From: Haliotis rufescens
Lineage: Eukaryota
Length of the DNA: 64,000 nt
Direction of reading: 5' to 3'
Assembly (NCBI RefSeq): GCF_023055435.1
Contig: NW_025964383.1
Coordinates: forward strand, 13,888,001-13,952,000
A model generated the notes under the pieces. The model saw nothing but the letters and a program-made list of their open reading frames with translations, was not told where the DNA came from and did no database searches. Positions 7,166 through 53,203 of this stretch are shown here, one piece after another. A program made the position numbers and the translations under genes. Positions within the stretch are counted from its first letter, which is position 1. Each line of letters begins with the position of its first letter.

Positions 7166-7385
7166 TTCCAGAAATGACGTCATGATAAAACAATTTCTTA
7201 CCGTGAAATAAAACCACGCCTCATTTTTCATTGTTCTATATATGTACATACAAACATACATACATATTGTCGTTCCCAGATAATCACCAAGTCAGATAGA
7301 ACCCCATACCCCTTGTACTTTCTGTCTTATTTTGTGAATCTCGATTGATTTTATATTATTAAACCTTCTCTCTTCCAGCAAAGAT

Positions 7386-10300
7386 ATGGCCGCAAGGAAG
7401 AGAGTCGCCATTGTGGGAGCAGGGCTCGCCGGTTTGGCGGCCATCAAGTCGTGTTTGGAAGAAGGGTTGGAGCCTGTGTGTTTCGAACAATATGACAACT
7501 GTGGTAAGGTGTAACACTTTCGAGGTGACATCAGTATCATACGTTATACATTAATAATCATATCATAAACATTCATCTTAAAAAAAAGAATGTTGCTTTT
7601 TTTTTTATAAGAAATCGTTGCTAAGCCTTATTTCCAAGTAGGCACAACACAAGCGACGTTGTAAGGATAAAGGGTTAACTAACATATTGTCACGTTTATA
7701 ATAAGGTGGTGTTTGGTACTACACGGAAGAATACAGAGAAGGGCAGGGTGCAAGGGCCTTTGATTGTCTGACAACGAACATCAGTAGGGAGATGTTTGGC
7801 TTCAGCGATTTTCCCTACCCTCCCAATCTTCCGCCATTCCTGCCGCGCACCATGGTCTACGACTACATCCTGAGCTACTGTGAGACGTTTGGACTCGGCA
7901 AATACATCCACCTCAACACCAGGGTCAATAACATAAAGAAGTCAAGGGACTACAACGTTACGGGAAGATGGGAGGTGGAAACGATGGATTCAGAGAAGAA
8001 GACCCAAAGGGACATCTTTGATTTCGTTATGATCTGCACTGGTTTCTACAAGAAGCCTCGCATACCTGATATAAAAGGACTGGATACTTTCAAAGGAACT
8101 ATTGAACACTCTATGAGGTTCAAAGATGCTGTGCAATACAAGGGCAAGTCTGTACTTGTAGTTGGTAAGTGATTTGTGTTGCACGTATTGTTAAAAATAT
8201 AGATAGTGTTTTCAATACGATAAAGGAATAAATGTGGACATTATGTTTATGCTCCCTTCATTCAAGTAATGTATCTTAAACATCGACTGTTTTAAGAATG
8301 TCACTGGACGATAACGAAATCACTTCCTCTTGTTTTTTTCTGTATCGCAAATTCCCATGTAATACAATTTATATTCCTTTTTTAATACTTACGATACGGA
8401 CGGATATAAATTTTACAGTTATTATGACGAGCAGTGGCATTGTCAATAAAGACAGAGTTAACGTCTTCTATTGTCATTGAATAATTTGAGACTGTTTAAA
8501 GCATCTGTAATATATACTGTCATGTTTATGAACAAATCAGGATCATAATATCAATTGTTACGCCGTATCCAAGCATGGTTAAAAGGCGGTACACACAATG
8601 TCTGTGGTTCACTATTGTTATGCAAACCTTTCTCTAGTTTATATTTTCATTTTTTAACCTTAAGGAAACTCCCATTCTTCCGGAGATATGTCAGCTGAGT
8701 CTTCAGCTTATGCAGAACAGGTACGTCAAATGACTAGGTATTAACAATTATAAATCAAATCCCCTCTTGTCATAATTACAAATCTCATTAATATGATATA
8801 AGGGCCAATCTGTCTTGGTAGTAAATAGTTCGAATAGCGTTTGCTTTCGTGTGCTTTAATGTTCTAAATTATCATTTGGAAAGCAAACAAAACGTTAATA
8901 AAGTGTACTGTTCCTGTGTCTCAAATTGTAAAAAGTGACGTCATTGATGTACGGTCCAGGAGACATTCTTCTCCTCTATTAAGGGGGCGGTCGGGTAGCC
9001 TGGTGGTTAAAGCGTTCGCTCGTCACGCCGAAGACCCGGGTTCGATTCCCGACATGGGTACAATGTGTGAAGCCCATTTCTGGTGTCCCCCGCCGTGATA
9101 TTGCTGGAATATTGCTAAAAGCGGCGTAAAACCATATTCACTCACCCACTCACTCACTCTCCTCTATTAAACAAAAAAAATAGTATATATTTTGTGTCTA
9201 TCTAATTCATAAAAAAAGAATTGTGCAAACCTAATCATGATCAACAGCATGGTTTGCAGACTTATTAATACGCCTCTTTTTTTTCTTTTGCAGGTATATT
9301 ACAGTGTAGGAGAAGGTATGCTTATGATGCCATTGTGTGTCAAAAACGGGCAACCGTGGGACCTGGTTGTCTTTAGGAGGGCCAACATGTGGAATCCAGT
9401 CAAGTTCTTCAAGTTAGTGGTCGACTTGTGCAATGACCGTCTTGACCACAGGCATGCAGGGTTCACCCCCACAACTCCCCCGTCAAAGACTAGAGTAATG
9501 CTCAACGATAGAGTTCAGTATAAAGTCATGAGTGGGAGGATTAAAGTTGTCAATAGACTGACTCGTCTTGGACCCCACGAAGCTGAATTTGACGATGGCA
9601 CGATCATCAAGAACTTGGACGCCATTTTGTTTGCTACCGGATATGATCTTTTGATAGACTTCCTCGATGAGCCGTTACAAGAGGGTAAGACTAATAAAAT
9701 GTTAAACAAAGCTTGGCATTTTCTATTGACTGCCATAATTTACAGTCCTAACTGTAGCAAGCTTGAATCAAGATCCTCTAAGCCAACTTAGTATGGTCAA
9801 ATATTATTAGAAGAATCTAGCAGTTGACAATTACCCTAAAGACATAGACACTATCTCAGTTTTACACAATATGTCATGGCAGTAATGTTTGGACCTTTGA
9901 TCGCAATTGGATCATTATTGGGGCGCATGGTTCTTTTTTACATCCATAAATTAGAGACTGACCATGATATTCTGGTATAAAGGGGCCGGGAATTGTTTTA
10001 AAGCAATTATTACAGAAAACAATTTAAAAAAGGCCTTTTTTGTTTTAAAAAGATGGTCATACGAGCTGTCCTATCATGCGAATAAATATATCGTTAAAAA
10101 CGAATGTTCCGCTCTTTCTTTTAGAGAAATAAATTGTTTGTCTTAAAAAAGCAGCTGTCTGAGAATTTGGCCCCGATATTGTTGTACTACTCCTGTTTGC
10201 AGATGATGGCAAGTTGAGTCTGTACAAGATGATGTTCCCACTTCATCAGCATCACACCCTGTCGGTGATTGGTTGCGTGGACTCTGATGGAGCCATTCCT

Positions 10301-11931
10301 CCACTAGCTGAGTTACAGGGCCGCCTTGCAGCCCGGGTATATGCCGGCAATCATCGACTGCCTTCCTTGAAGGTCATGGCGGCTGAAGTGGAAAAGAGAA
10401 ACTCCTCTTTATTTGAAAGATTTGGACGCTACAAATATCTGGTTAGTAACAGCCAAGCAAATGTACCATTAAATGCGAACGTAATGACGCAAGTGAAATA
10501 GTGAATTACACCGGACATAATTTTGGTCATCGATTTGTGAAAGTGTGAAATGTCCTCCGCTCGACTACAATAAAATAGTTGGAAAGCTTAACTTAAGCAT
10601 TGAAGGTTGTTACCTTGATCACAAAACGTTTGAGCAGGAGTCATATGATGCTCTTTGATATCTTCGTAGAAAGAGCATGTGCCCGAATGGTTGTGAAATG
10701 TAGACAAGTTGGCTAGAGCTGCTGGAACATTGCTCGACATATAGGGAAAGTTGACTGTTGGAAAGTTGAAGTCATCCATGTTGTCATACAATTCTTGTGA
10801 AAAGTTTCTCGTCACCCTTAAACATTATGCAAAGATCGAAATATAAAACAGATGACGCTGTTTCACTGGTCTCTCGACCCGAGAAAATCCGGGGTAGAAT
10901 AGGTCTCCACTAGCCCATGCTTGCCGTAAAAGGCTCAGTGCTTGTCGAAAGAGGCGACTAACGGGATCGGGTGGTCAGGCTTGCTGACTTTGTTGATGCA
11001 TGTCGTCGTATCCCAATTGCGTGGAACGATGCTCATGATGTCAATCACTGGATTGTCTGGTCCAGATTCGACTATTTACAGACGGCGTCATATTGCTGGA
11101 ATATTGCTGAGTGCGGCGTTAAACAACAAACAAACTAACAAACAAACACTGTCTTTTATTTCTAGTTCAGGTGCCTGAATAAGCGGAAGGGCATTGGCTC
11201 TTTCATGGTTATTGAACGATATAAGATTATCGACATTCTTGAAGCTTAAGGTAAACTTCTTGTATTTTGCCAAATCTTGAGCAGAAATGTGATTCATATC
11301 CTGAACATATTGTGAAAGATTGAGCATAGTCAAGCACGATTACGCCAAACATGCTTCTGTGGGAATTCTGGGTTAGAACATCAACCCATGCAAGGTATCG
11401 TCAGAGGCTAGTAAATGAATCGGGTGGTCAAGCTGGGTGATTATAGCGAGTCATCGTACCCCATTCCTTATTTGTCGGGTGCAGACTTTTTACAGATTTA
11501 TTTATTTGGTACGTCCCTAGATTATTGCTGACACAACAGTACAACAAAATTAAACTTAAATTTGGTGTTTGGTACCATAAAATGTATATTGTATATTTCA
11601 GATACCCAACCTTGTTTTCCGAGACGAAGTGGCAGAAGAGCTAGGCGTGACCCCCTCCTTTTTGGACCTGATCAAGGCGGGGCCTCGAATTGCCTATCTC
11701 TACTACTACGGGCCTGCTCTCCCATACCACTATCGACTGTGGGGGCCGCATACTTGGAGTGGAGCAAAGAAAGCAATCAAGTATGCTGTAGAACATGGTC
11801 ACTATGCTAAGCAAATGAGGAATGTCCAACCACCGGACGGTGCAGGAGCAAACTATTTCTTCAGAATTATCATTGTTTCCACAGTTGCTGCCTTGCTGGC
11901 TTTGGCCTACCAGAGAACATATTTCTATTGA
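7386..11931 (+). CDS. Flavin-containing monooxygenase (FMO family, class B flavoprotein monooxygenase), 6 coding exons, 530 aa
   Basis: Exons 7386-7503, 7706-8164, 8665-8720, 9294-9684, 10203-10441, 11602-11931; all GT-AG with compatible phases (1593 nt, in frame). Motifs: FAD-binding [31 protein letters not shown] fingerprint [30 protein letters not shown]-terminal hydrophobic anchor [18 protein letters not shown]. An acceptor (tcttccag) just before the ATG implies an upstream non-coding exon. Confidence 0.95.
8983..9157 (+). mobile_element. SINE family A (tRNA-Asp-like head, ~170 bp, (ACTC)n tail), full-length copy in FMO intron 3
   Basis: A box (tagcctggtgg), tRNA-Asp-like gtcacgcc..gggttcgattccc, 13-bp TSD tctcctctattaa. 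Other copies: ~2618-2757(-), 15808-15957(-), 16641-16804(-), 16950-17046(+), 20982-21122(+), 30859-31020(+), 32825-32983(-), 49838-49987(-), 52700-52815(+), 54762-54935(-), 59862-59943(-), 61910-62076(-). Confidence 0.9.
10585..11340 (-). mobile_element. Degenerate Penelope-like retroelement RT fragment in FMO intron 5
   Basis: Minus-strand remnants [19 protein letters not shown] and [23 protein letters not shown] resemble PLE RT YIDD and C-terminal motifs; interrupted by a family B copy. Confidence 0.7.
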
Positions 11932-37283: not shown

Positions 37284-40200
37284 CCCGTCACTACCCATCA
37301 GAAAACACAACCTCCCGTAACTACCCACCAGACAACACAACCTCCCGTCACTACCCACAGGACAACACAACCTTACGTAACTTCCCACAGGACAACACAA
37401 CGTCCCGCCACTACCCACAGGACAACACAACCTTCCTTCACTACCCACACGACAACACAACCTCCCGTCACTACCCACAGGGCAACACAACCTCACGTCA
37501 CTGCCCACAGGACAACACAACATCCCGTCACTACGCACGGGACAACACAACCTCCCGTCACTACCCACGGGACAACACAACCTCCCGTCACTACCCACAG
37601 GACAACACAACCTCCCGTCACAACCCATGGACAACATAACCTCCCGTCACTACCCACAAGACAACACAACCTCCCGTCACTACCCACAAGACAACACAAC
37701 CTCCCGTCACTACCCACCAGACAACACAACCTCCCGTCACTACCCACAGGACAACACAACCTCCCGTCACTACCCACCAGACAACACAACCTCCCGTCAC
37801 AACCCACAAGACAACACAACCTCCCGTCACAACCCACAAGACAACACAACCTCCCGTCACTACCCACGGGACAACACAACCTCCCTTCACTACCCACGGG
37901 ACAACACAATCTCCCGTCACAACCCACAAGACAACACAACCTCCCGTCACTACCCACCAGACAACACAACCTCCCGTCAATACCCACCAGACAACACAAC
38001 CGCCCGTCACTACCCACAGGACAACACAACCTCCCGTCACTACCCACCAGACAACACAACCTCCCGTCACAACCCACAAGACAACACAACCTCCCGTCAC
38101 AACCCACAAGACAACACAACCTCCCGTCACTACCCACGGGACAACACAACCTCCCGTCACTACCCACGGGACAACACAATCTCCCGTCACAACCCACAAG
38201 ACAACACAACCTCCCGTCACTACCCACCAGACAACACAACCTCCCGTCACTACCCACCAGACAACACAACCTCCCGTCACAACCCACAAGACAACACAAC
38301 CTCCCGTCACAACCCACAAGACAACACAACCTCCCGTCACTGCCCACGGGACAACACAACCTTCCGTCACTACCCGCAGGACAACACAACATTACGTCAC
38401 TGCCTACAGGACAACACAACCTCCCGTCACTACCCACAGGACAACACAACCTTCCTTCACTACCCACACGACAACACAACCTCCCGTCACTACCAACAGG
38501 ACAACACAACCTCACGTCACTGCCCACAGGACAACACAACCTCACGTCACTACCCACAGGACAACAAAACCTCCCGTCACAACCCACAGGACAACACAAC
38601 CTCCCGTCGCTACACACAGAACAACACGACCTCCCGTCACTGCCCACATGGCAACACAACCTCCCGTCACAACCAACAGGGCAACACAACATCCCGGCAC
38701 TGTCCACAGGGCAACACATCCTCCCGTCACTACCCACCAGACAACACAACCTCCCGTCACTACCCACAGGACAACACAACATTACGTCACAACCCACAGG
38801 ACAACACAACCTCCCGTCACTACCCACAGGACAACACAACCTTCCTTCACTACCCACACGACAACACAACCTCCCGTCACTACCCACAGGGCAACACAAC
38901 ATCCCGGCAATGCCCACGGGGCGACACAACCTCCCGTCACTACCCACCAGACAACACAACCTCCCGTCACTACCCACAGGACAACACAACATTACGTCAC
39001 TGCCCACAGGACCACACAACATTACGTCACTACCCACAGGACAACACAACCTCCCGTCACTATCCACAGGACAACACAACCTTCCTTCACTACCAATACG
39101 ACAACACAACCTCCCGTCACTACCAACAGGACAACACAACCTCCCGTCACTACCCACGGGACAACACAACATCCCGTAACTACCCACGGGACAACACAAC
39201 CTCCCGTCACAACCCACAAGACAACACAACCTCCCGTCACTACCCACGGGACAACACAACCTTCCGTCACTACCCACAGGACAACACAACATTACGTCAT
39301 TGCCCACAGGACAACACAACCTCCCGTCACTACCCACAGGACAACACAACCTTCCTTCACTACCCACACGACAACACAACCTCCCTTCACTACCCACAGG
39401 ACAACACAACATTACGTCACTGCCCACAGGACAACACAACCTCCCATCACTACCCACAGGACAACAAAACCTCCCGTCACAACCCACAGGACAACATAAC
39501 CTCCCGTCGCTACCCACAGAACAACACGACCTCCCGTCACTGCCCACATGGCAACACAACCTCCCGTCACTACCCACAGGGCAACACAACATCCCGGCAA
39601 TGCCCACAGGGCAACACAATCTCCCGTCACTACCCACCAGACAACACAACCTCCCGTCACTACCCACAGGACAACACAACCTTCCTTCACTACCAACACG
39701 ACAACACAACCTCCCGTCACTACCCATAGGGCAACACAACCTCCCGTCACTACCCACGGGAGAACACAACATCCCGTCACTACCCACGGGACAACACAAC
39801 CTCCCGTCACAACCCACAAGACAACACAGCCTCCCGTAACTACCCACGGGACAACACAACCTTCCGTCACTACCCACAGGACAACACAACATTACGTCAC
39901 TGCCCATAGGACAACACAACCTCCCGTCACTACCCACAGGACAACACAACCTTCCTTCACTACCCACACGACAACACAACCTCCCGTCACTACCCACAGG
40001 CCAACACAACATTACGTCACTGCCCACAGGACAACACAACCTCCCGTCACTACCCACAGGACAACAAAACCTCCCGTCACAACCCACAGGACAACATAAC
40101 CTCCCGTCACTACCCACAGAACAACACGACCTCCCGTCACTGCCCACATGGCAACACAACCTCCCGTCACTGCCCACAGGACAACACAACCTCCCGTCAC

Positions 40201-42300
40201 TACCAACAGGACAACACAACCTTCCTTCACTACCCACACGACAACACAACCTCCCGTCACTACCAACAGGACAACACAACCTCACGTCACTGCCCACAGG
40301 ACAACACAACCTCCCGTCACTACCCACAGGAGAACAAAACCTCCCGTCACAACCCACAGGACAACACAACCTCCCGTCGCTACCCACAGAACAACACGAC
40401 CTCCCGACCCTGCCCACATGGCAACACAACCTCCCGTCACAACCCACAGGGCAACACAACCTCCCGTCACTACCCACGGGACAACACAACCTCCCGTCAC
40501 TACCCACGGGACAACACAACCTCCCGTCACTACCCACCAGACAACACAACCTCCCGTCACAACCCACAAGACAACACAACCTCCCGTCACTACCCACAGG
40601 ACGACACAACCTCCCGTCACTACCCACAGGACAACACAACCTTCCTTCACTACCCACACGACAACACAACCTCCCGTCACTACCCACAGGACAACACAAC
40701 ATTACGTCACTGCCCACAGGACAACACAACCTCCCGTCACTACCCACAGGACAACAAAACCTCCCGTCACAACCCACAGGACAACATAACCTCCCGTCGC
40801 TACCCACAGAACAACACGACCTCCCGTCACTGCCAACATGGCAACACAACCTCCCGTCACTACCCACAGGGCAACACAACACCCCGGCAATGCCCACAGG
40901 GCAACACAACCTCCCGTCACTACCCACCAGACAACACAACCTCCCGTCACTACCCACAGGACAACACAACATTACGTCACTGCCCACAGGACAACACAAC
41001 CTCCCGTCACTACCCACAGGACAACACAACCTTCCTTCACTACCAACACGACAACACAACCTCCCGTCACTACCCATAGGGCAACACAACCTCCCGTCAC
41101 TACCCACGGGACAACACAACCTCCCGTCACTACCCACGGGACAACACAACCTCCCGTCACTACCCACCAGACAACACAACCTCCCGTCACAACCCACAAG
41201 ACAACACAACCTCCCGTCACTACCCACAGGACGACACAACCTCCCGTCACTACCCACAGGACAACACAACCTTCCTTCACTACCCACACGACAACACAAC
41301 CTCCCGTCACTACCCACAGGACAACACAACATTACGTCACTGCCCACAGGACAACACAACCTCCCGTCACTACCCACAGGACAACAAAACCTCCCGTCAC
41401 AACCCACAGGACAACATAACCTCCCGTCGCTACCCACAGAACAACACGACCTCCCGTCACTGCCCACATGGCAACACAACCTCCCGTCACTACCCACAGG
41501 GCAACACAACACCCCGGCAATGCCCACAGGGCAACACAACCTCCCGTCACTACCCACCAGACAACACAACCTCCCGTCACTACCCACAGGACAACACAAC
41601 ATTACGTCACTGCCCACAGGACAACACAACCTCCCGTCACTACCCACAGGACAACACAACCTTCCTTCACTACCAACACGACAACACAACCTCCCGTCAC
41701 TACCCATAGGGCAACACAACCTCCCGTCACTACCCACGGGACAACACAACATCCCGTCACTACCCACGGGACAACACAACCTACCGTCACAACCCACAAG
41801 ACAACACAACCTCCCGTCACTACCCACCAGACAACACAACCTTCCCTCACTACCCACAGGACAACACAACATTACGTCACTGCCCACAGGACAACACAAC
41901 CTCCCGTCACTACCCACAGGACAACACAACCTTCCTTCACTACCCACACGACAACACAACCTCCCGTCACTACCCACAGCGCAACACAACATCGCGGCAC
42001 TGCCCACAGGGCAACACAACCTCCCGTCACTACCCACCAGACAACATAACATCACGGCACTGCCCAGAGGACAACATAACCTCTCGTCACTACCCACAGG
42101 ACAACACAACCTCCCGTCACCACCCACAGGACAACACAACCACCCGTCACTACCCACAGGACAACACAACCTCACGTCACCACCCCCAGGACAACACAAC
42201 CTCCCGTCACTACCCACAGGACAACACAACCACCCGTCACTACCCACAGGACAACACAACCTCCCGTCACCACCCACAGGACAACACAACCTCCCGTCAC
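37284..42300. repeat. 30-bp minisatellite, ~167 units, with higher-order structure
   Basis: Consensus tacccacaggacaacacaacctcccgtcac; rare variants recur at 630-bp spacing (40601/41231, 40881/41511). Confidence 0.97.
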
Positions 42301-43039: not shown

Positions 43040-44910
43040 CTTGATATCCTTCAGCGTGTTAGCATTCAGAGAAACAGATCTGTGACTGAGCTGGTGAGTT
43101 TTTACAATGGTGCAGCCATATCAGGAAAGGGGAACCCCAGGAACAGGCCTCACACGTTGTACCGTTTAGGGTAGACCCCGGAACTCCGGTAAAGTGACTA
43201 AACGCTACAGCCAACAGCAATGTATTATAGGCAACAATAGAAGACTTCGTACGGAAAATAATGACATTAAACGATCCGTTAAGAATGCAATAGTTGATAA
43301 TACACTTTTGTAAGGATGCTTTTGTTCATGGATCAATCCGACGCACTGAATTCAGGTCAAGGTGGTCCCGTGAAGATCTGGGGTAGAATAGACCTTCAGC
43401 AGCCATGCTTACCCTAAAAGACGACTATGCCTGTCGTAAGAGGCGACTAACGGGATCGGGTGGTCAGGCTCGCTGACTTGGTTTAATGCATGTCATCGTC
43501 TCCCAATTGGATAGATCTATGCTCACGATAACAATCACTGAATTCTCTGGTCCAGGCTTGATTATTTACAGCCCGCCATCTATATATATTTTTTGTCGTT
43601 TTTAGACTAATGAAAAATGCTAAATGGTGATATACCACTTTCTGTAGTGTGAAAGGCGAGTACTGGTACAGTTTTGCAGTATGGGCGGAGGTTGAAATAG
43701 AAGCGTTAAGTCCCAACACACAAAAGCGTCAAACTTGTGTTCGCTATTATTATTGGACTATGTGAAATGTTTTGACTGATGGCCGCTGATGATCGACTCA
43801 TGACATATAAATAAGCCTGTATAGCTGTGAAAATGAAACTATCGTTTCTCTGCCCACGTCTCGAGCGAAACCCTATGTTTACAGTCAGGACAAAGTGAGG
43901 TTATAGGAGAAGGAAAGTCATAAGTCCCAATACTATATATACCATTCTTACAGCCTAGGTATTGGTAAACAGATTTTTAAAAGTCACGCTTTCGGTTTCT
44001 TTCTAAGACTACCTAATATCTTTCATATCGTTTTTCTTTAAATAAATTGTGTCAGGGTGGATTCAATTTTTTTTGTGAAATTGCGGTGACAGTTCGATGG
44101 CGACTTTCCCGTTTGGCTAACGACATATTTATGACAGTTTACAAATGTACAAGGCACTTTATATGTAACAATACAGAAGTTTGTTTTAACTTTGATTTTA
44201 ATGTAATGAGGTTGAACGAGTGAGACCAAAAATACCAATATTCCATGTTAGCATAAGCTTAGTCAGAATCGTACAATGGATTCTGTGATTTGGTTTTGGT
44301 TTGTTGTTTAACGCCGCACTCAGCAATATTACAGGTATAAGACGGCGGTCTGGACCAGACAATCAGGTGATTGACATCTTGAGCATCGATCCACGCAATT
44401 GGGATTTGATGACATGCATCAAGCAAGTCAGCCAGTCTGACCTACCGATCATTAGTCGCCTCTTACAACAAGCATAGTCGCATTTTACGGCCAGCATGGG
44501 TTGCTGAGGACCTATTCTACCCCGGATCTTCACGGGTCTCTGTGATTATGAAAATGGTAATGTCGCTTTTATCAACGCTTATGTACATGTAAAATAATAC
44601 TATGACTATACACACACAATGACTGTACAGGATTTAAATGGGATTCCGATTTATAACAAATGCGTCTTAAATTTTAAAAGATAGTAATTGATATCGTTGG
44701 AAAGATACGGGCAACCATTTTGATATATCTCTCTCCAGTTATGAATATAAATATTGGGCTGTAAAGTTTGTTTGTTGTTTAACGCCACACTCTGGTCAGG
44801 AGGTGGTAAGTGGAAGGCATGAGAGACGATGTCCGGTGATAAGGAGACTGTCTAACACTCATCCGGGTGTCCTGAATTTAAATCCTCCACACGAGTGGCT
44901 TGCGATTTCA

Positions 44911-45344
44911 GGGAATTTCCGACGCTGAGTGCGAGAAAATACACGAAAACCTCCGTCGAGGAACGCAGCAACTTGTACGACTCGTGGCCATTCAGAAAGA
45001 GAAACTAGGTCACACAGGGAATTTCAGACGCGGAGTGAGTACTACTCTGTCTTACAGACCCTGATACAAATATATCAACTACAGCCCATGCAAGTCTATA
45101 ATGTTTGGCAAGTCTAGATTACTGCAGTATCAGGAAAATGAAGAGAATCACTGGGCTCCCTTTTTATTATATTTTTATTAAGATAACTGAGCAACTGTTT
45201 TTTCTGTACGATATGTTCATTTCAGAGACTAGATGTTAGTCTAAGAGAGTACAAAAAGCAAGGAAACCTCCGCCGAGGGACGCAGCAACTCGCACGGCTC
45301 GTGGCTATTCAGAAAGAGAAACTAGGTCACACAGGGAATTTCCC
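44911..45344 (+). promoter_or_regulatory. Candidate immune enhancer upstream of TNF copy 4: three kB sites, two ISRE/RORE composites
   Basis: GGGAATTTCC 44911-44920 and 45334-45343; GGGAATTTCA 45017-45026; GAAAGAGAAACTAGGTCA at 44995 and 45312, within an ~80-bp duplicated module. Confidence 0.65.
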
Positions 45345-45600
45345 ATAGAAACTGTGACTTCAGGGAACCCACGATAAGTCATAGGATAGCCCCACATGTT
45401 CTCAGAGCAAGGCTTGATATCTGCAACCATGTTTCGAACGGGTTTAGTATATGTGTGACAGCGGAAGGCTAGACATTATCAGCTGTGACGGATTCGACCT
45501 AGATAGATATACTAGTGTTTATTACAACTGTGAAACAATTTTATGGAGACAGGCATCATCGTACACATCGATTTAACTCGGGCCGCGGATTTCTTCTTCC

Positions 45601-46296
45601 ATGATGGCAGAACCTGACTCCACCTTCATATCCACTGACACAGCAACGTCACCGCCTCCACCTTCCCAACAACGACGACGTCGTACCAATGTGTTGTTCT
45701 ATGCCGTTGTCGCCATTTCTCTGACTGCCAATGTTATCCTCGTTGTGGTAGTGACTTTCCACATGTTAATAAAACAACGTGGACATCACCACAAAAGTGA
45801 GGGTTTATCCTCCATGTCGAATCACCAGCTTGGGTTTGCTGATCCACTATGTCTCACCTGTGATCAATTGGGTCCGCTGGTCGAATCCCAGGATACGATC
45901 TATGACGTCATACGATTGCCGTTGGGACATACGCTGTGTTGTCAGAAACAGAGGAATGACGTCACAAAGTTATTCCATAAGGTAATTAGACGCTAGCATT
46001 ATACACATGACATTCTATTTTACTTATTTACCATTTTATGTTGATGAAAATATTATCATGATCAGTTGCGATACCCATATATATCAAGAGAGTGACAGAT
46101 TTTTTAATGTGTTAAATTGGGACAGGATACGCTCATATTTTCGCGAACACACGGTATCCTCAGTATCCATTCATTAACACATGCTTATTATTATACTACT
46201 CAGAATCGTACTATGGGCCCCGCTCTAAGGAGGGATTTCTTATGATTATGGTGAGGTAAAACGTCGCGTCAAAGGTTATTGCACTTATACGGCGAC

Positions 46297-47166: not shown

Positions 47167-49250
47167 AGGAATGTTGTGGAATTTGTATTCGTTTTGCCAG
47201 ACGTGTCGTTTGTGACGTGGAGCATTGCGGGTTTTCTCAACACTTGTCAGTACTTATAGAATTACATCCGTGCTGCTGCGATCGATTACTATATCGTGGA
47301 GGGTTGTGTGTCAGGCTAGGTGGCCTGGTTGATTGCGTGTCATCGTACCCCGACGACGTGGATAGTTGCTCACACTACCAATCACTGGCTTGTATTACAC
47401 ACACCGCCGTCATATAGGTGAAATATTGCTGAGTGCGGCGTTAAGCAACAAACAAACAAATAGTGTTCGCGGTCGGGTAGCGCTTTCATTTAAGGAACCG
47501 CAATTTTATCATTAACTGAGATGCGTCTCTTCCTATGGCAGGATTTGATCGCGGGTTCGAATCCAGATAGTGACCCTTAACAAGGTCGAACATCATAACT
47601 GTTTCCGACTTGAGGCGTTGTGTGGATTTCTCATATTCAGCTGACGCTCTGTGATATCACTTCCCGTGGCCTTTCTGTCAGTATAGACAACAGGCTAGAA
47701 CGCCAGCTTCTCTTTGAATGGTACAAATTGTAGGAGCTTTGAAAACACACAGTCATTTGATTTCTTCACGTGTCTCATTCTTGTTTCAGATAATAGGTGA
47801 TGAATACTACAGACGGTCTACAGGTACGCCAATGATTTATTTATTTATTATTCATGATATTCAGTTAAGATCCTTCATGTTGTATGTAACCTAAACCCAC
47901 GGTGTTTCCATAATCAGTTCTTCTTCCAAATTCAGCTACAACGTATTTGCACCAAATCAAATTACCTTCTTTGATAATGTAAACACACACAGCAATGCAT
48001 TTTCCTTCTGATTTAATTATTTGACCTGACCGTGGTCAAGTGGGAGAGCGTCTGCTCGGAGAACTTTTTACGAAAAGACGTTAAAAGATGGTACTTGTTG
48101 TTACCCTGTCTGGCGTTCGACATTAAGGGGCTAAAACAAGGACTGGTCGGCTCGGAATCAGTATACTGTGGGGTATTCATGTTAAACCGCGGCAAGGTAT
48201 CTCAGTGTGCTAGCACTATAAATCGGCATCAGTCCGGACTACAGTGTAGTACAAGTAGCCACACACACGCACGCACGCACGCACGCACGCTCGCACGCAC
48301 GTCGCTCTATAGTTGCAATAATCTTGGACGCGACGTTAAACCCCATTTCATCTCACCATTATTTAACCTACTCGTGTTAATCTCTCTCTTGTATGCAATT
48401 GTTGTTACTGTTAATCCCCCACCTTCTATATATATCCTGTATCATGTTAAGTAATTAGCCTTGCTCGACAACGGTATAATGATCTGTACCGACACGTCGC
48501 CTCTACAGTAAGGAAATAACCATAAATTGTATCTAATTTCCCACTTCAGGTAGGGAGCCAGTTGGCCTCACCAGGGGGATGAATGAGCAGATATGGAGTC
48601 GTCCCAGGGAGTCGACGTGGGCTCATCGGTACATGGTGCCACACACAGGTAATGTACGACATTAAGAGTGTAGATAATGTTTTACGCCGCAGATAACAAA
48701 TTCCGTCGTTCATCCCAGTGGTTAATATTTTTTTCTATGTGATAATTTCAAATTCTCACAGTCACATATGCCCTTAAATATAACAAACAGTTCTTGTAAT
48801 GATGCATCAGTATATAATTTTTGCTTTGTTATTAATTCATAACGTGTTATGTGTACAGATTCGCCGCCAGCATGGACAACGAGCGATCCCTACAACACGT
48901 CATTCTGTTCAAACGTCGAATGTAACGGAACAGACATTGTTGTCTCAGCAGGGGGTCTCTACCTCGTGTACTCACACATCACATTCATCACGTCACCAGC
49001 TCCTTCAGACACCCCCTTCCTGCACATGATACAGCGACAGAACCCCAATCTCCCTGGTCTGGGTGTGAAACCAATACTCTTATCTAAAACGTCATTCAGA
49101 TGGACAGTAGCTCCGCAGCAAACGTCCTTTCTGTCCGCCATTGTGAAGCTCCGCAGACAAGATCGCCTCCATGTGAAAATGTCGGAAAATTATTATGATT
49201 TAGTTGAAAAAAGGATGCTTTCAAATTTTTTTGGTGTTATGAAAGTGTAA
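45601..49250 (+). CDS. TNF-superfamily ligand, copy 4 (4 exons incl. 34-nt micro-exon, ~301 aa)
   Basis: Exons 45601-45981, 47790-47823 (IIGDEYYRRST), 48550-48648 (..WAHRYM), 48859-49250 (GGLYLVYSHITF, TSFLSAIVKLRRQDRLHV, NFFGVMKV). 906 nt, phases 0/1/1 fit. Confidence 0.88.
46818..47166. repeat. (AGT)n microsatellite
   Basis: Imperfect trinucleotide run after an N-gap, in TNF copy 4 intron 1. Confidence 0.95.
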
Positions 49251-53192: not shown

Positions 53193-53203
53193 GGGGATTC
53201 CCC
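53193..53203. promoter_or_regulatory. Palindromic NF-kB site upstream of TNF copy 5
   Basis: GGGGATTCCCC matches the kB consensus GGGRNWYYCC on both strands; a second kB-like site (GGGATTTCTC, minus strand) lies at 53316-53325. Confidence 0.55.

What the first reader, a model, noticed from the sequence alone, without database searches (positions are those of the whole stretch)
44911..45344. Duplicated ISRE + RORE + NF-kB composite element upstream of TNF copy 4
Seen: an ~80-bp module at 44947-45026 and 45264-45343 (317 bp apart). Its 5' half has several mismatches, but its 3' part attcagaaagagaaactaggtcacacagggaatttc is identical. That part holds GAAAGAGAAACT (ISRE consensus GAAANNGAAACT), an overlapping AAACTAGGTCA (RORE/Rev-erb consensus WAWNTRGGTCA) and GGGAATTTC(C/A) (kB). 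A third perfect kB site lies at 44911. Established: adjacent IRF and kB sites define antiviral enhancers such as that of IFN-beta. Inference: a virus-inducible TNF in an animal without canonical interferon, with possible IRF versus nuclear-receptor competition (circadian or metabolic gating).
Basis: partly seen in the sequence, partly recalled or inferred. Interest (0 to 1): 0.72.

Follow-up and report, generated by a model that had tools for sequence, protein, structure and literature searches.

The report
Transposon-split duplicated promoter of abalone TNF
A short stretch in front of one of eight abalone TNF immune-signal genes was copied in tandem and later split by a small transposon that is likely spliced out of the RNA; it likely works as an ordinary NF-kB/IRF immune promoter, and nothing here shows that it is virus-specific or clock-gated.

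Summary
The repeat is a ~107-bp tandem duplication running from kB site to kB site, so the 'third' kB at 44911 is not independent. The 317-bp spacing comes from a 201-bp high-copy transposon (1754 matches to one 19-mer; 9-bp target-site duplication) inserted in the second unit. The motif module itself is single-locus and not transposon-derived. The gene is a Haliotis rufescens TNF, copy 4 of 8 in tandem. Spliced RNA contigs run through the proximal module, and one contig implies that the transposon is imperfectly spliced out of a long 5' leader (donor in the left duplication, acceptor inside the element). With copy 4 left out, kB sites lie near 3 of 7 paralogue starts (P 0.01-0.05), so kB control is likely and ordinary. 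The ISRE is plausible. The RORE is weakly supported (one more in copy 6, P 0.06-0.09). Virus induction and IRF-versus-nuclear-receptor gating are untested. Verdict: a new member of a known kind of IRF/kB immune promoter (compare shrimp Vago4), with a small transposon-intron twist.

The parts
44907..44915 (+). GAS-type site (TTC-N3-GAA) overlapping the first kB site
   Evidence: motif match only
44911..45016 (+). Tandem unit A (106 bp): begins with a perfect kB site (44911-44920), ends just after ISRE/RORE copy 1
   Evidence: single-locus in genome
44995..45012 (+). Distal ISRE-type site (44995-45006) overlapping a RORE-type site (45002-45012)
45017..45333 (+). Tandem unit B (107 bp without the insertion): begins with kB site 2 (45017-45025), interrupted by the transposon
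   Evidence: 15 differences from unit A in 107 columns
45034..45042 (.). Left target-site duplication (9 bp); holds the GT splice donor at 45035
45043..45243 (.). 201-bp non-autonomous DNA transposon (MITE), high copy, AcademH-like by target-duplication length
45035..45225 (+). Inferred 191-nt GT-AG intron in the long 5' leader: donor in the left duplication, acceptor 18 nt inside the element's right end
45244..45252 (.). Right target-site duplication (1 mismatch to the left; the change removes its copy of the GT donor)
45312..45343 (+). Proximal ISRE-type (45312-45323), RORE-type (45319-45329) and perfect kB (45334-45343) sites, 258-289 bp above the ATG
45346..45372 (+). Degenerate echo of the module's 3' end, with a GAS-type site (45359-45367) overlapping a kB-like site (45363-45372)
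45601..45981 (+). TNF copy 4, first coding exon (N-terminal hydrophobic stretch, Cys-rich stalk)
   Evidence: identical to H. rufescens LOC124125200
47790..47823 (+). TNF copy 4, exon 2
48543..48641 (+). TNF copy 4, exon 3 (approximate ends)
48855..49247 (+). TNF copy 4, last exon with the TNF homology domain (approximate start)

Best explanation
This is a locally duplicated, transposon-interrupted stretch at the start of one abalone TNF gene that likely works as an inflammation-inducible proximal promoter, driven mainly by NF-kB (Rel) with likely help from IRF and STAT. History: a ~107-bp segment was duplicated head to tail (shown; about 12-14% diverged), then a young 201-bp DNA transposon (97-99% like its best family members) inserted into the second unit (shown; the order is inferred from the divergences). 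Working (inferred): the proximal ISRE+kB unit likely fires a start near 45370, the distal kB/GAS unit likely fires a second start at about 44920-44996, and the long transcript likely removes most of the transposon with a donor in the left target duplication and an acceptor inside the element, leaving 19 extra letters and a 3-codon upstream ORF. The RORE may be a real modulating site but is the weakest part.
For: Tandem unit and insertion. Not a repeat: searches with unit A and with the proximal unit each return only the two local copies (the tool warns that no match does not prove rarity). kB sites within 400 bp of the ATG in 3 of 7 other paralogues (shuffle P 0.011; local-background P 0.05) and strict GAS sites in 2 of 7 (P 0.004-0.014), copy 4 left out (7 motifs tested, no correction). 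The ISRE-type 12-mer occurs once per 177 kb (7538 hits), so one within 400 bp of a given start has P about 0.002. ISRE+kB pattern: 6 hits (5 loci) against 0 for the reversed control. Controls picked by me: viperin has an ISRE and a GAS about 1 kb above its first coding exon; the IRF1/2-like gene has a kB plus two GAS in one cluster about 15 kb upstream; the IRF4/8-like gene showed no such cluster. Two IRF genes are in the genome. Mollusc IRFs activate or bind ISRE (PMC5557890, PMC13524488, passages). RNA contigs end at the exon-1 donor and leave the intron uncovered; 3 of 4 runs extend through the proximal unit to 45226-45232 and 1 of 4 begins at 45373. One 156-nt contig fits 39 nt + 117 nt around a GT-AG intron, and three bin depths match that placement (1.04, 4.83, 23.8).
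Against: No binding, reporter, chromatin or induction data. The RNA status of the runs is the tool's guess, and contigs cannot show starts or levels. The splice joint was not printed; support in a second study is only 2 unaligned letters at the same place. Four of the seven other paralogues have no kB site in the 400 bp tested, and the ISRE recurs in only 1 of 7 (P 0.16-0.30). The four other ISRE+kB loci showed no recognisable immune gene within 1.5 kb by ORF reading (not scanned against Pfam). No TATA consensus lies within 400 bp of the ATG. Conservation of the module in another species was not shown: the most divergent organism's contig stops 30 nt short of it.
Confidence: 0.6

Rival explanations
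1. One reading: an IFN-beta-like, virus-inducible enhancer in which IRF and a ROR/HR3 or Rev-erb/E75 receptor compete for the overlapping site and gate TNF by clock or metabolic state.
For: Perfect RORE consensus overlapping the ISRE by 5 letters, kept in both copies. A ROR-type receptor is encoded (best PDB hit ROR-gamma, E 6.6e-18). Copy 6 has its own RORE at -100 and a perfect DR1 at -284. Nuclear-receptor half-sites number 6 against 2.2 expected above the 7 other paralogues (P 0.02).
Against: Half-sites by gene: 3 of 7, P 0.30; RORE 1 of 7, P 0.06-0.09. ISRE+RORE 18-mer: 3 independent loci against 1 control; one is a duplicated exon-like piece without kB and the other showed no promoter context. 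Half-site+kB pattern: 14 independent loci against 8 control hits, P 0.14. No AP-1/CRE site within 1.5 kb. A pearl-oyster TNF falls with poly(I:C) (PMC12367993, passages).
Confidence: 0.13
2. Only the proximal kB site matters (or none does); the ISRE and RORE are chance matches, and the duplication and insertion are neutral changes tolerated in a promoter.
For: One event explains all the repetition. The 36-nt identical run has P only 0.04-0.05 and could come from gene conversion. ISRE-type 12-mers are barely above the reversed control genome-wide (7538 against 6796). Motifs were chosen after seeing the sequence.
Against: ISRE+kB within 40 bp in 0.13% of shuffles. All 10 substitutions in the 90-bp block fall outside the motif stretch. 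RNA likely starts from the distal unit too.
Confidence: 0.2
3. The motif module was delivered by a transposable element.
For: A high-copy element lies between the two copies.
Against: The element's borders and target duplications exclude every motif; the module matches nowhere else.
Confidence: 0.03
4. The repeat acts as an RNA structure in the 5' leader.
For: Both copies are at least partly transcribed.
Against: Neither copy folds better than shuffles (z 0.34 and 0.18); no Rfam family reaches its threshold.
Confidence: 0.03

Closest known systems
Shrimp Vago4 promoter (PMC4602278; passages read)
   Same: Invertebrate cytokine gene with an ISRE in one paralogue only; the ISRE lies in the 5' UTR region; IRF binds and activates it.
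   Different: Here the gene is a TNF, the ISRE is paired with kB and overlaps a RORE, the unit is duplicated, and no function is shown.
Oyster CgIRF1 / CgIFNLP and CgIRF2/8 ISRE activation (PMC13524488, PMC5557890; passages read)
   Same: Mollusc IRFs bind or activate ISRE-containing promoters.
   Different: Those tests used an IFN-like gene or mammalian reporters; no native mollusc TNF promoter appeared in the passages read.
Human IFN-beta enhanceosome (recalled)
   Same: IRF site next to a kB site, same strand, close to a start site.
   Different: No ATF-2/c-Jun site, one ISRE per unit rather than tandem IRF sites; virus induction untested.
AcademH non-autonomous DNA transposons (TSD length from PMC10045372, passage; termini recalled)
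   Same: 9- or 10-bp target duplications; TAG...CTA ends.
   Different: No autonomous partner was sought; other superfamilies (Mutator-like) also make 9-bp duplications.
Introners and spliced DNA transposons (PMC11282704, PMC12130899, passages; maize Ds splicing recalled)
   Same: MITE-like element with one splice site of its own and the other co-opted from the target duplication.
   Different: Splicing is imprecise (19 letters stay), lies in a 5' leader, and is inferred at one locus only.

Membership tests
IFN-beta-type enhanceosome | IRF site adjacent to a kB site | tested here: met
   10 letters between the ISRE and kB in both copies
IFN-beta-type enhanceosome | ATF-2/c-Jun (AP-1/CRE) site in the same module (feature recalled) | tested here: not met
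   no AP-1 or CRE consensus in 1.5 kb above the ATG
IFN-beta-type enhanceosome | tandem IRF sites with four GAAA cores (feature recalled) | tested here: not met
   one ISRE (two cores) per unit
IFN-beta-type enhanceosome | lies within about 100 bp above the start site | tested here: inconclusive
   one contig begins at 45373, three run through the module; contigs cannot fix starts
IFN-beta-type enhanceosome | virus-induced cooperative activation | not testable with these tools
   needs challenge RNA and reporters
NF-kB/IRF-responsive immune promoter | consensus sites near the gene start beyond chance | tested here: met
NF-kB/IRF-responsive immune promoter | cognate factors encoded | tested here: met
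   two IRF genes; Rel was not searched (its presence in abalone is recalled)
NF-kB/IRF-responsive immune promoter | binding and induction | not testable with these tools
   no assay data
RORE (NR1F/NR1D monomer element) | AT-rich 5' extension plus RGGTCA | tested here: met
RORE (NR1F/NR1D monomer element) | ROR/HR3-type receptor in the genome | tested here: met
   L052, best PDB hit ROR-gamma (48 residues only)
RORE (NR1F/NR1D monomer element) | recurrence or conservation beyond chance | tested here: inconclusive
   1 of 7 paralogues, P 0.06-0.09; genome patterns not enriched
AcademH-type MITE | 9-10-bp target-site duplication | tested here: met
   of 8 copies parsed, 4 exact 9-bp, 2 with 1-2 mismatches, 1 of 10 bp (read), 1 none; a ninth shows 9 bp; window copy 8 of 9 letters
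AcademH-type MITE | TAG...CTA termini (recalled; source paper not held) | tested here: met
   8 of 9 other copies begin TAG and all 9 end CTA; the window copy begins TAC
AcademH-type MITE | shared ends with an autonomous element encoding transposase and helicase | not tested
   no search made
Introner | one splice site from the element, one co-opted from the target duplication | tested here: inconclusive
   fits exactly but is inferred from one contig
Introner | clean removal that restores the exon | tested here: not met
   19 extra letters and a 3-codon upstream ORF would remain
Introner | many introns of the same family across the genome | not tested
   no annotation available
TNF superfamily ligand | C-terminal TNF homology domain | tested here: met
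   PF00229 45.9 bits, cut-off 23

The most novel reading that the evidence does not exclude
One abalone TNF paralogue has been wired as an interferon-stimulated-type cytokine, with two IRF/kB units firing two start sites and an overlapping RORE that lets a ROR/HR3 or Rev-erb receptor displace IRF, so that nuclear receptors gate a mollusc TNF cluster (copy 6 carries a RORE and a DR1 too); the distal unit survives only because an AcademH-like transposon became an intron.
Probability: 0.12. Interest if true: 0.65.

Novelty: new member of a known kind. Interest (0 to 1): 0.33.

Why it matters
If the sites work, this is a ready native test substrate for mollusc Rel, IRF and ROR/HR3, where most published tests use mammalian reporters, and the eight paralogues with different site mixes offer a natural comparison of how a cytokine array divides its regulation. 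It bears on abalone disease resistance only if copy 4 proves inducible. The transposon-made leader intron is a small, checkable example of intron gain in an animal. None of this is a new kind of system.

Tried and rejected
Transposon origin of the motifs: rejected. A second duplicated ISRE+RORE pair on contig C594 looked like a parallel case but reads as a duplicated small exon-like piece without kB. A dense 'ISRE cluster' on C1 is a low-complexity repeat. Four other ISRE+kB loci gave no recognisable immune gene within 1.5 kb. RNA structure: no signal. No RNA holder is on record as RNA in the run list; the four runs laid are guessed RNA. No cover at 44804-44956 in those contigs is not taken as proof of silence. 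Whether the insertion or the duplication varies between individuals remains open: no DNA-run result is available. Promoter DNA of the H. rubra and H. asinina orthologues could not be had (proteins only). The primary AcademH paper is not held. Two look-ups of earlier scan findings returned nothing. Literature searches (titles and abstract starts) showed no study of this promoter or of an ISRE/RORE overlap in a mollusc; subscription journals, where most abalone TNF papers appear, are not covered, and no supplements were read.

Full report
Observation. The ISRE-type, RORE-type and kB motifs are where stated. The gene 258 bp below the last kB site is a four-exon TNF, identical over the searched exon to Haliotis rufescens LOC124125200, with orthologues in H. 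rubra (80%) and H. asinina (78%). It is the fourth of eight same-strand TNF copies: five in the window and three in the next 24 kb.

Anatomy. A genome search with the region returned 2873 candidates; the 40 scored, apart from the window itself, all match the 200 bp between the two copies, at 92-99% identity. One 19-mer of that stretch has 1754 exact matches against 0 for the control. The element spans 45043-45243, ends TAG...CTA in most other copies, and is flanked by 9-bp target duplications; 9-10 bp is the AcademH length (PMC10045372, passage; the termini are recalled). With the element and one duplication set aside, the flanks align as a tandem repeat of 106 and 107 bp running from kB site to kB site, with 15 differences in 107 columns. 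So 317 = 107 + 201 + 9, and the three kB sites are about 2.1 copies of one unit. The unit matches nowhere else in the genome. The duplication (12-14% corrected divergence) is older than the insertion (1-3%).

Transcripts. Four guessed-RNA runs were laid. All stop at the exon-1 donor with no intron cover. Contigs reach 45226 (two runs, two studies) or 45232 (one run); the most divergent organism begins at 45373. One 156-nt contig aligns by its letters 40-156 to 45226-45342. If its first 39 letters lie at 44996-45034, the skipped 191 nt begin with a consensus GT donor and end with a pyrimidine tract and AG, the contig is bounded by the identical 30-mer as a graph loop should be, and three bin depths are reproduced (1.038, 4.828, 23.808 against 1.04, 4.83, 23.8). 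The joint table was cut, so this splice is inferred. The donor lies in the left target duplication, and the one mismatch between the duplications removes the right-hand copy of that donor. The acceptor lies in the element. Splicing would leave 19 extra letters with a 3-codon upstream ORF. This resembles introners (PMC11282704, passages) but is imprecise.

Are the motifs more than chance? In 20,000 shuffles of the upstream kilobase a kB site appeared in 25%, an ISRE in 5.7%, a RORE in 2.5%, ISRE+kB within 40 bp in 0.13%, all three in none. These motifs were picked after the fact. A cleaner test leaves copy 4 out and scans 400 bp above the other seven start codons: kB in 3 of 7 (P 0.011 by shuffle, 0.05 by local background), strict GAS in 2 of 7 (0.004-0.014), ISRE in 1 of 7 (0.16-0.30), RORE in 1 of 7 (0.06-0.09), nuclear-receptor half-sites 6 against 2.2 (0.02; by gene 0.30), AP-1 in 0 of 7. 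Seven motifs were tested without correction, and the start codons of copies 6-8 are my calls from ORFs. Genome-wide, ISRE+kB gave 6 hits (5 loci) against 0 controls, ISRE+RORE 5 hits (3 loci) against 1, half-site+kB 18 hits (14 loci) against 8. Three control genes: viperin has an ISRE and GAS about 1 kb above its first coding exon, the IRF1/2-like gene has a kB plus two GAS cluster, and the IRF4/8-like gene showed none (IRF labels are my reading of the sequences). The genome encodes two IRFs and a ROR/HR3-type receptor. The 36-nt identity across the motifs has permutation P 0.04-0.05: suggestive of constraint, but gene conversion or chance would do.

Mechanism. Most likely (0.6) this is the gene's inducible proximal promoter. 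Rel binding at the kB sites is the best-supported step, IRF and STAT input plausible, the RORE the weakest. The duplication likely gave a second, upstream start, and the later insertion was likely tolerated because it is spliced out. Shown: sequence anatomy, single-locus status, transcription through the proximal unit (in guessed-RNA contigs). Inferred: the splice, the two starts, all binding. Untested: induction by anything.

Comparison. The nearest precedent is shrimp Vago4, where an ISRE in the 5' UTR region of one of five paralogues is bound and activated by IRF (PMC4602278, passages). Mollusc IRFs bind ISREs and activate reporters (PMC5557890; PMC13524488; passages). The element works like an IRF/kB promoter but is not an IFN-beta-type enhanceosome: no AP-1/CRE site and no tandem IRF array (features recalled). 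Against a virus-specific reading, pearl-oyster TNF rises with LPS and falls with poly(I:C), and disk-abalone TNF is induced by bacteria and LPS (PMC12367993, passages). PMC11869874, PMC8218723 and PMC12130899 were read as passages only and added nothing on this promoter; other papers were seen as search listings. Searches found no study of this promoter, but subscription journals and supplements were not seen.

Verdict. Observation partly confirmed, interpretation partly supported. A new member of a known kind of immune promoter, with a modest transposon-intron twist. Interest 0.33; the IRF/nuclear-receptor switch has about 0.12 probability and would deserve 0.65 if shown.

Noticed in passing
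window 15271-56716 and G000:C605:13952001-13975200: Tandem array of eight same-strand TNF genes, about 25-42% identical in the TNF domain, sharing a Cys-rich stalk (CxxC...CC) in exon 1; none found in the 10 kb before the window or the 66 kb after copy 8.
   Followed up: partly
G000:C605:13953100-13953545 (L023, above TNF copy 6): Perfect nuclear-receptor DR1 at -284, RORE-type site at -100 and two GAS-type sites at -54 and -39; no kB.
   Followed up: partly
window 53193-53203: Palindromic perfect kB site 212 bp above the likely ATG of TNF copy 5.
   Followed up: partly
G000:C605, about 13961040 (L023, above TNF copy 7): kB site at -149 followed closely by a TATA-like box, and an ISRE-like site at -316.
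   Followed up: partly
G000:C595:459581-459621 (L034): kB plus two GAS sites in 40 bp about 15 kb above the first coding exon of the IRF1/2-like gene, like the mammalian IRF1 promoter (layout recalled).
   Followed up: partly
window 45043-45243 family, genome-wide: Young 200-bp MITE family with at least 1754 copies, carrying a conserved splice acceptor 18 nt from one end, and abundant in RNA-like contigs; it may create leader or UTR introns elsewhere.
   Followed up: partly
window 37284-42300: 5-kb minisatellite, 30-bp unit, about 167 copies, with long open frames on both strands, between TNF copies 3 and 4.
   Followed up: no
window 7300-11930: Flavin-containing monooxygenase gene just before the TNF array (PF00743).
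   Followed up: no
L014:1496-1690 (G000:C594:24294614-24294766): Local 60-bp duplication 135 bp apart that looks like a duplicated small terminal exon.
   Followed up: partly
G000:C598:265550-265675: A second, inverted fragment matching viperin's first coding exon lies inside the viperin gene.
   Followed up: no
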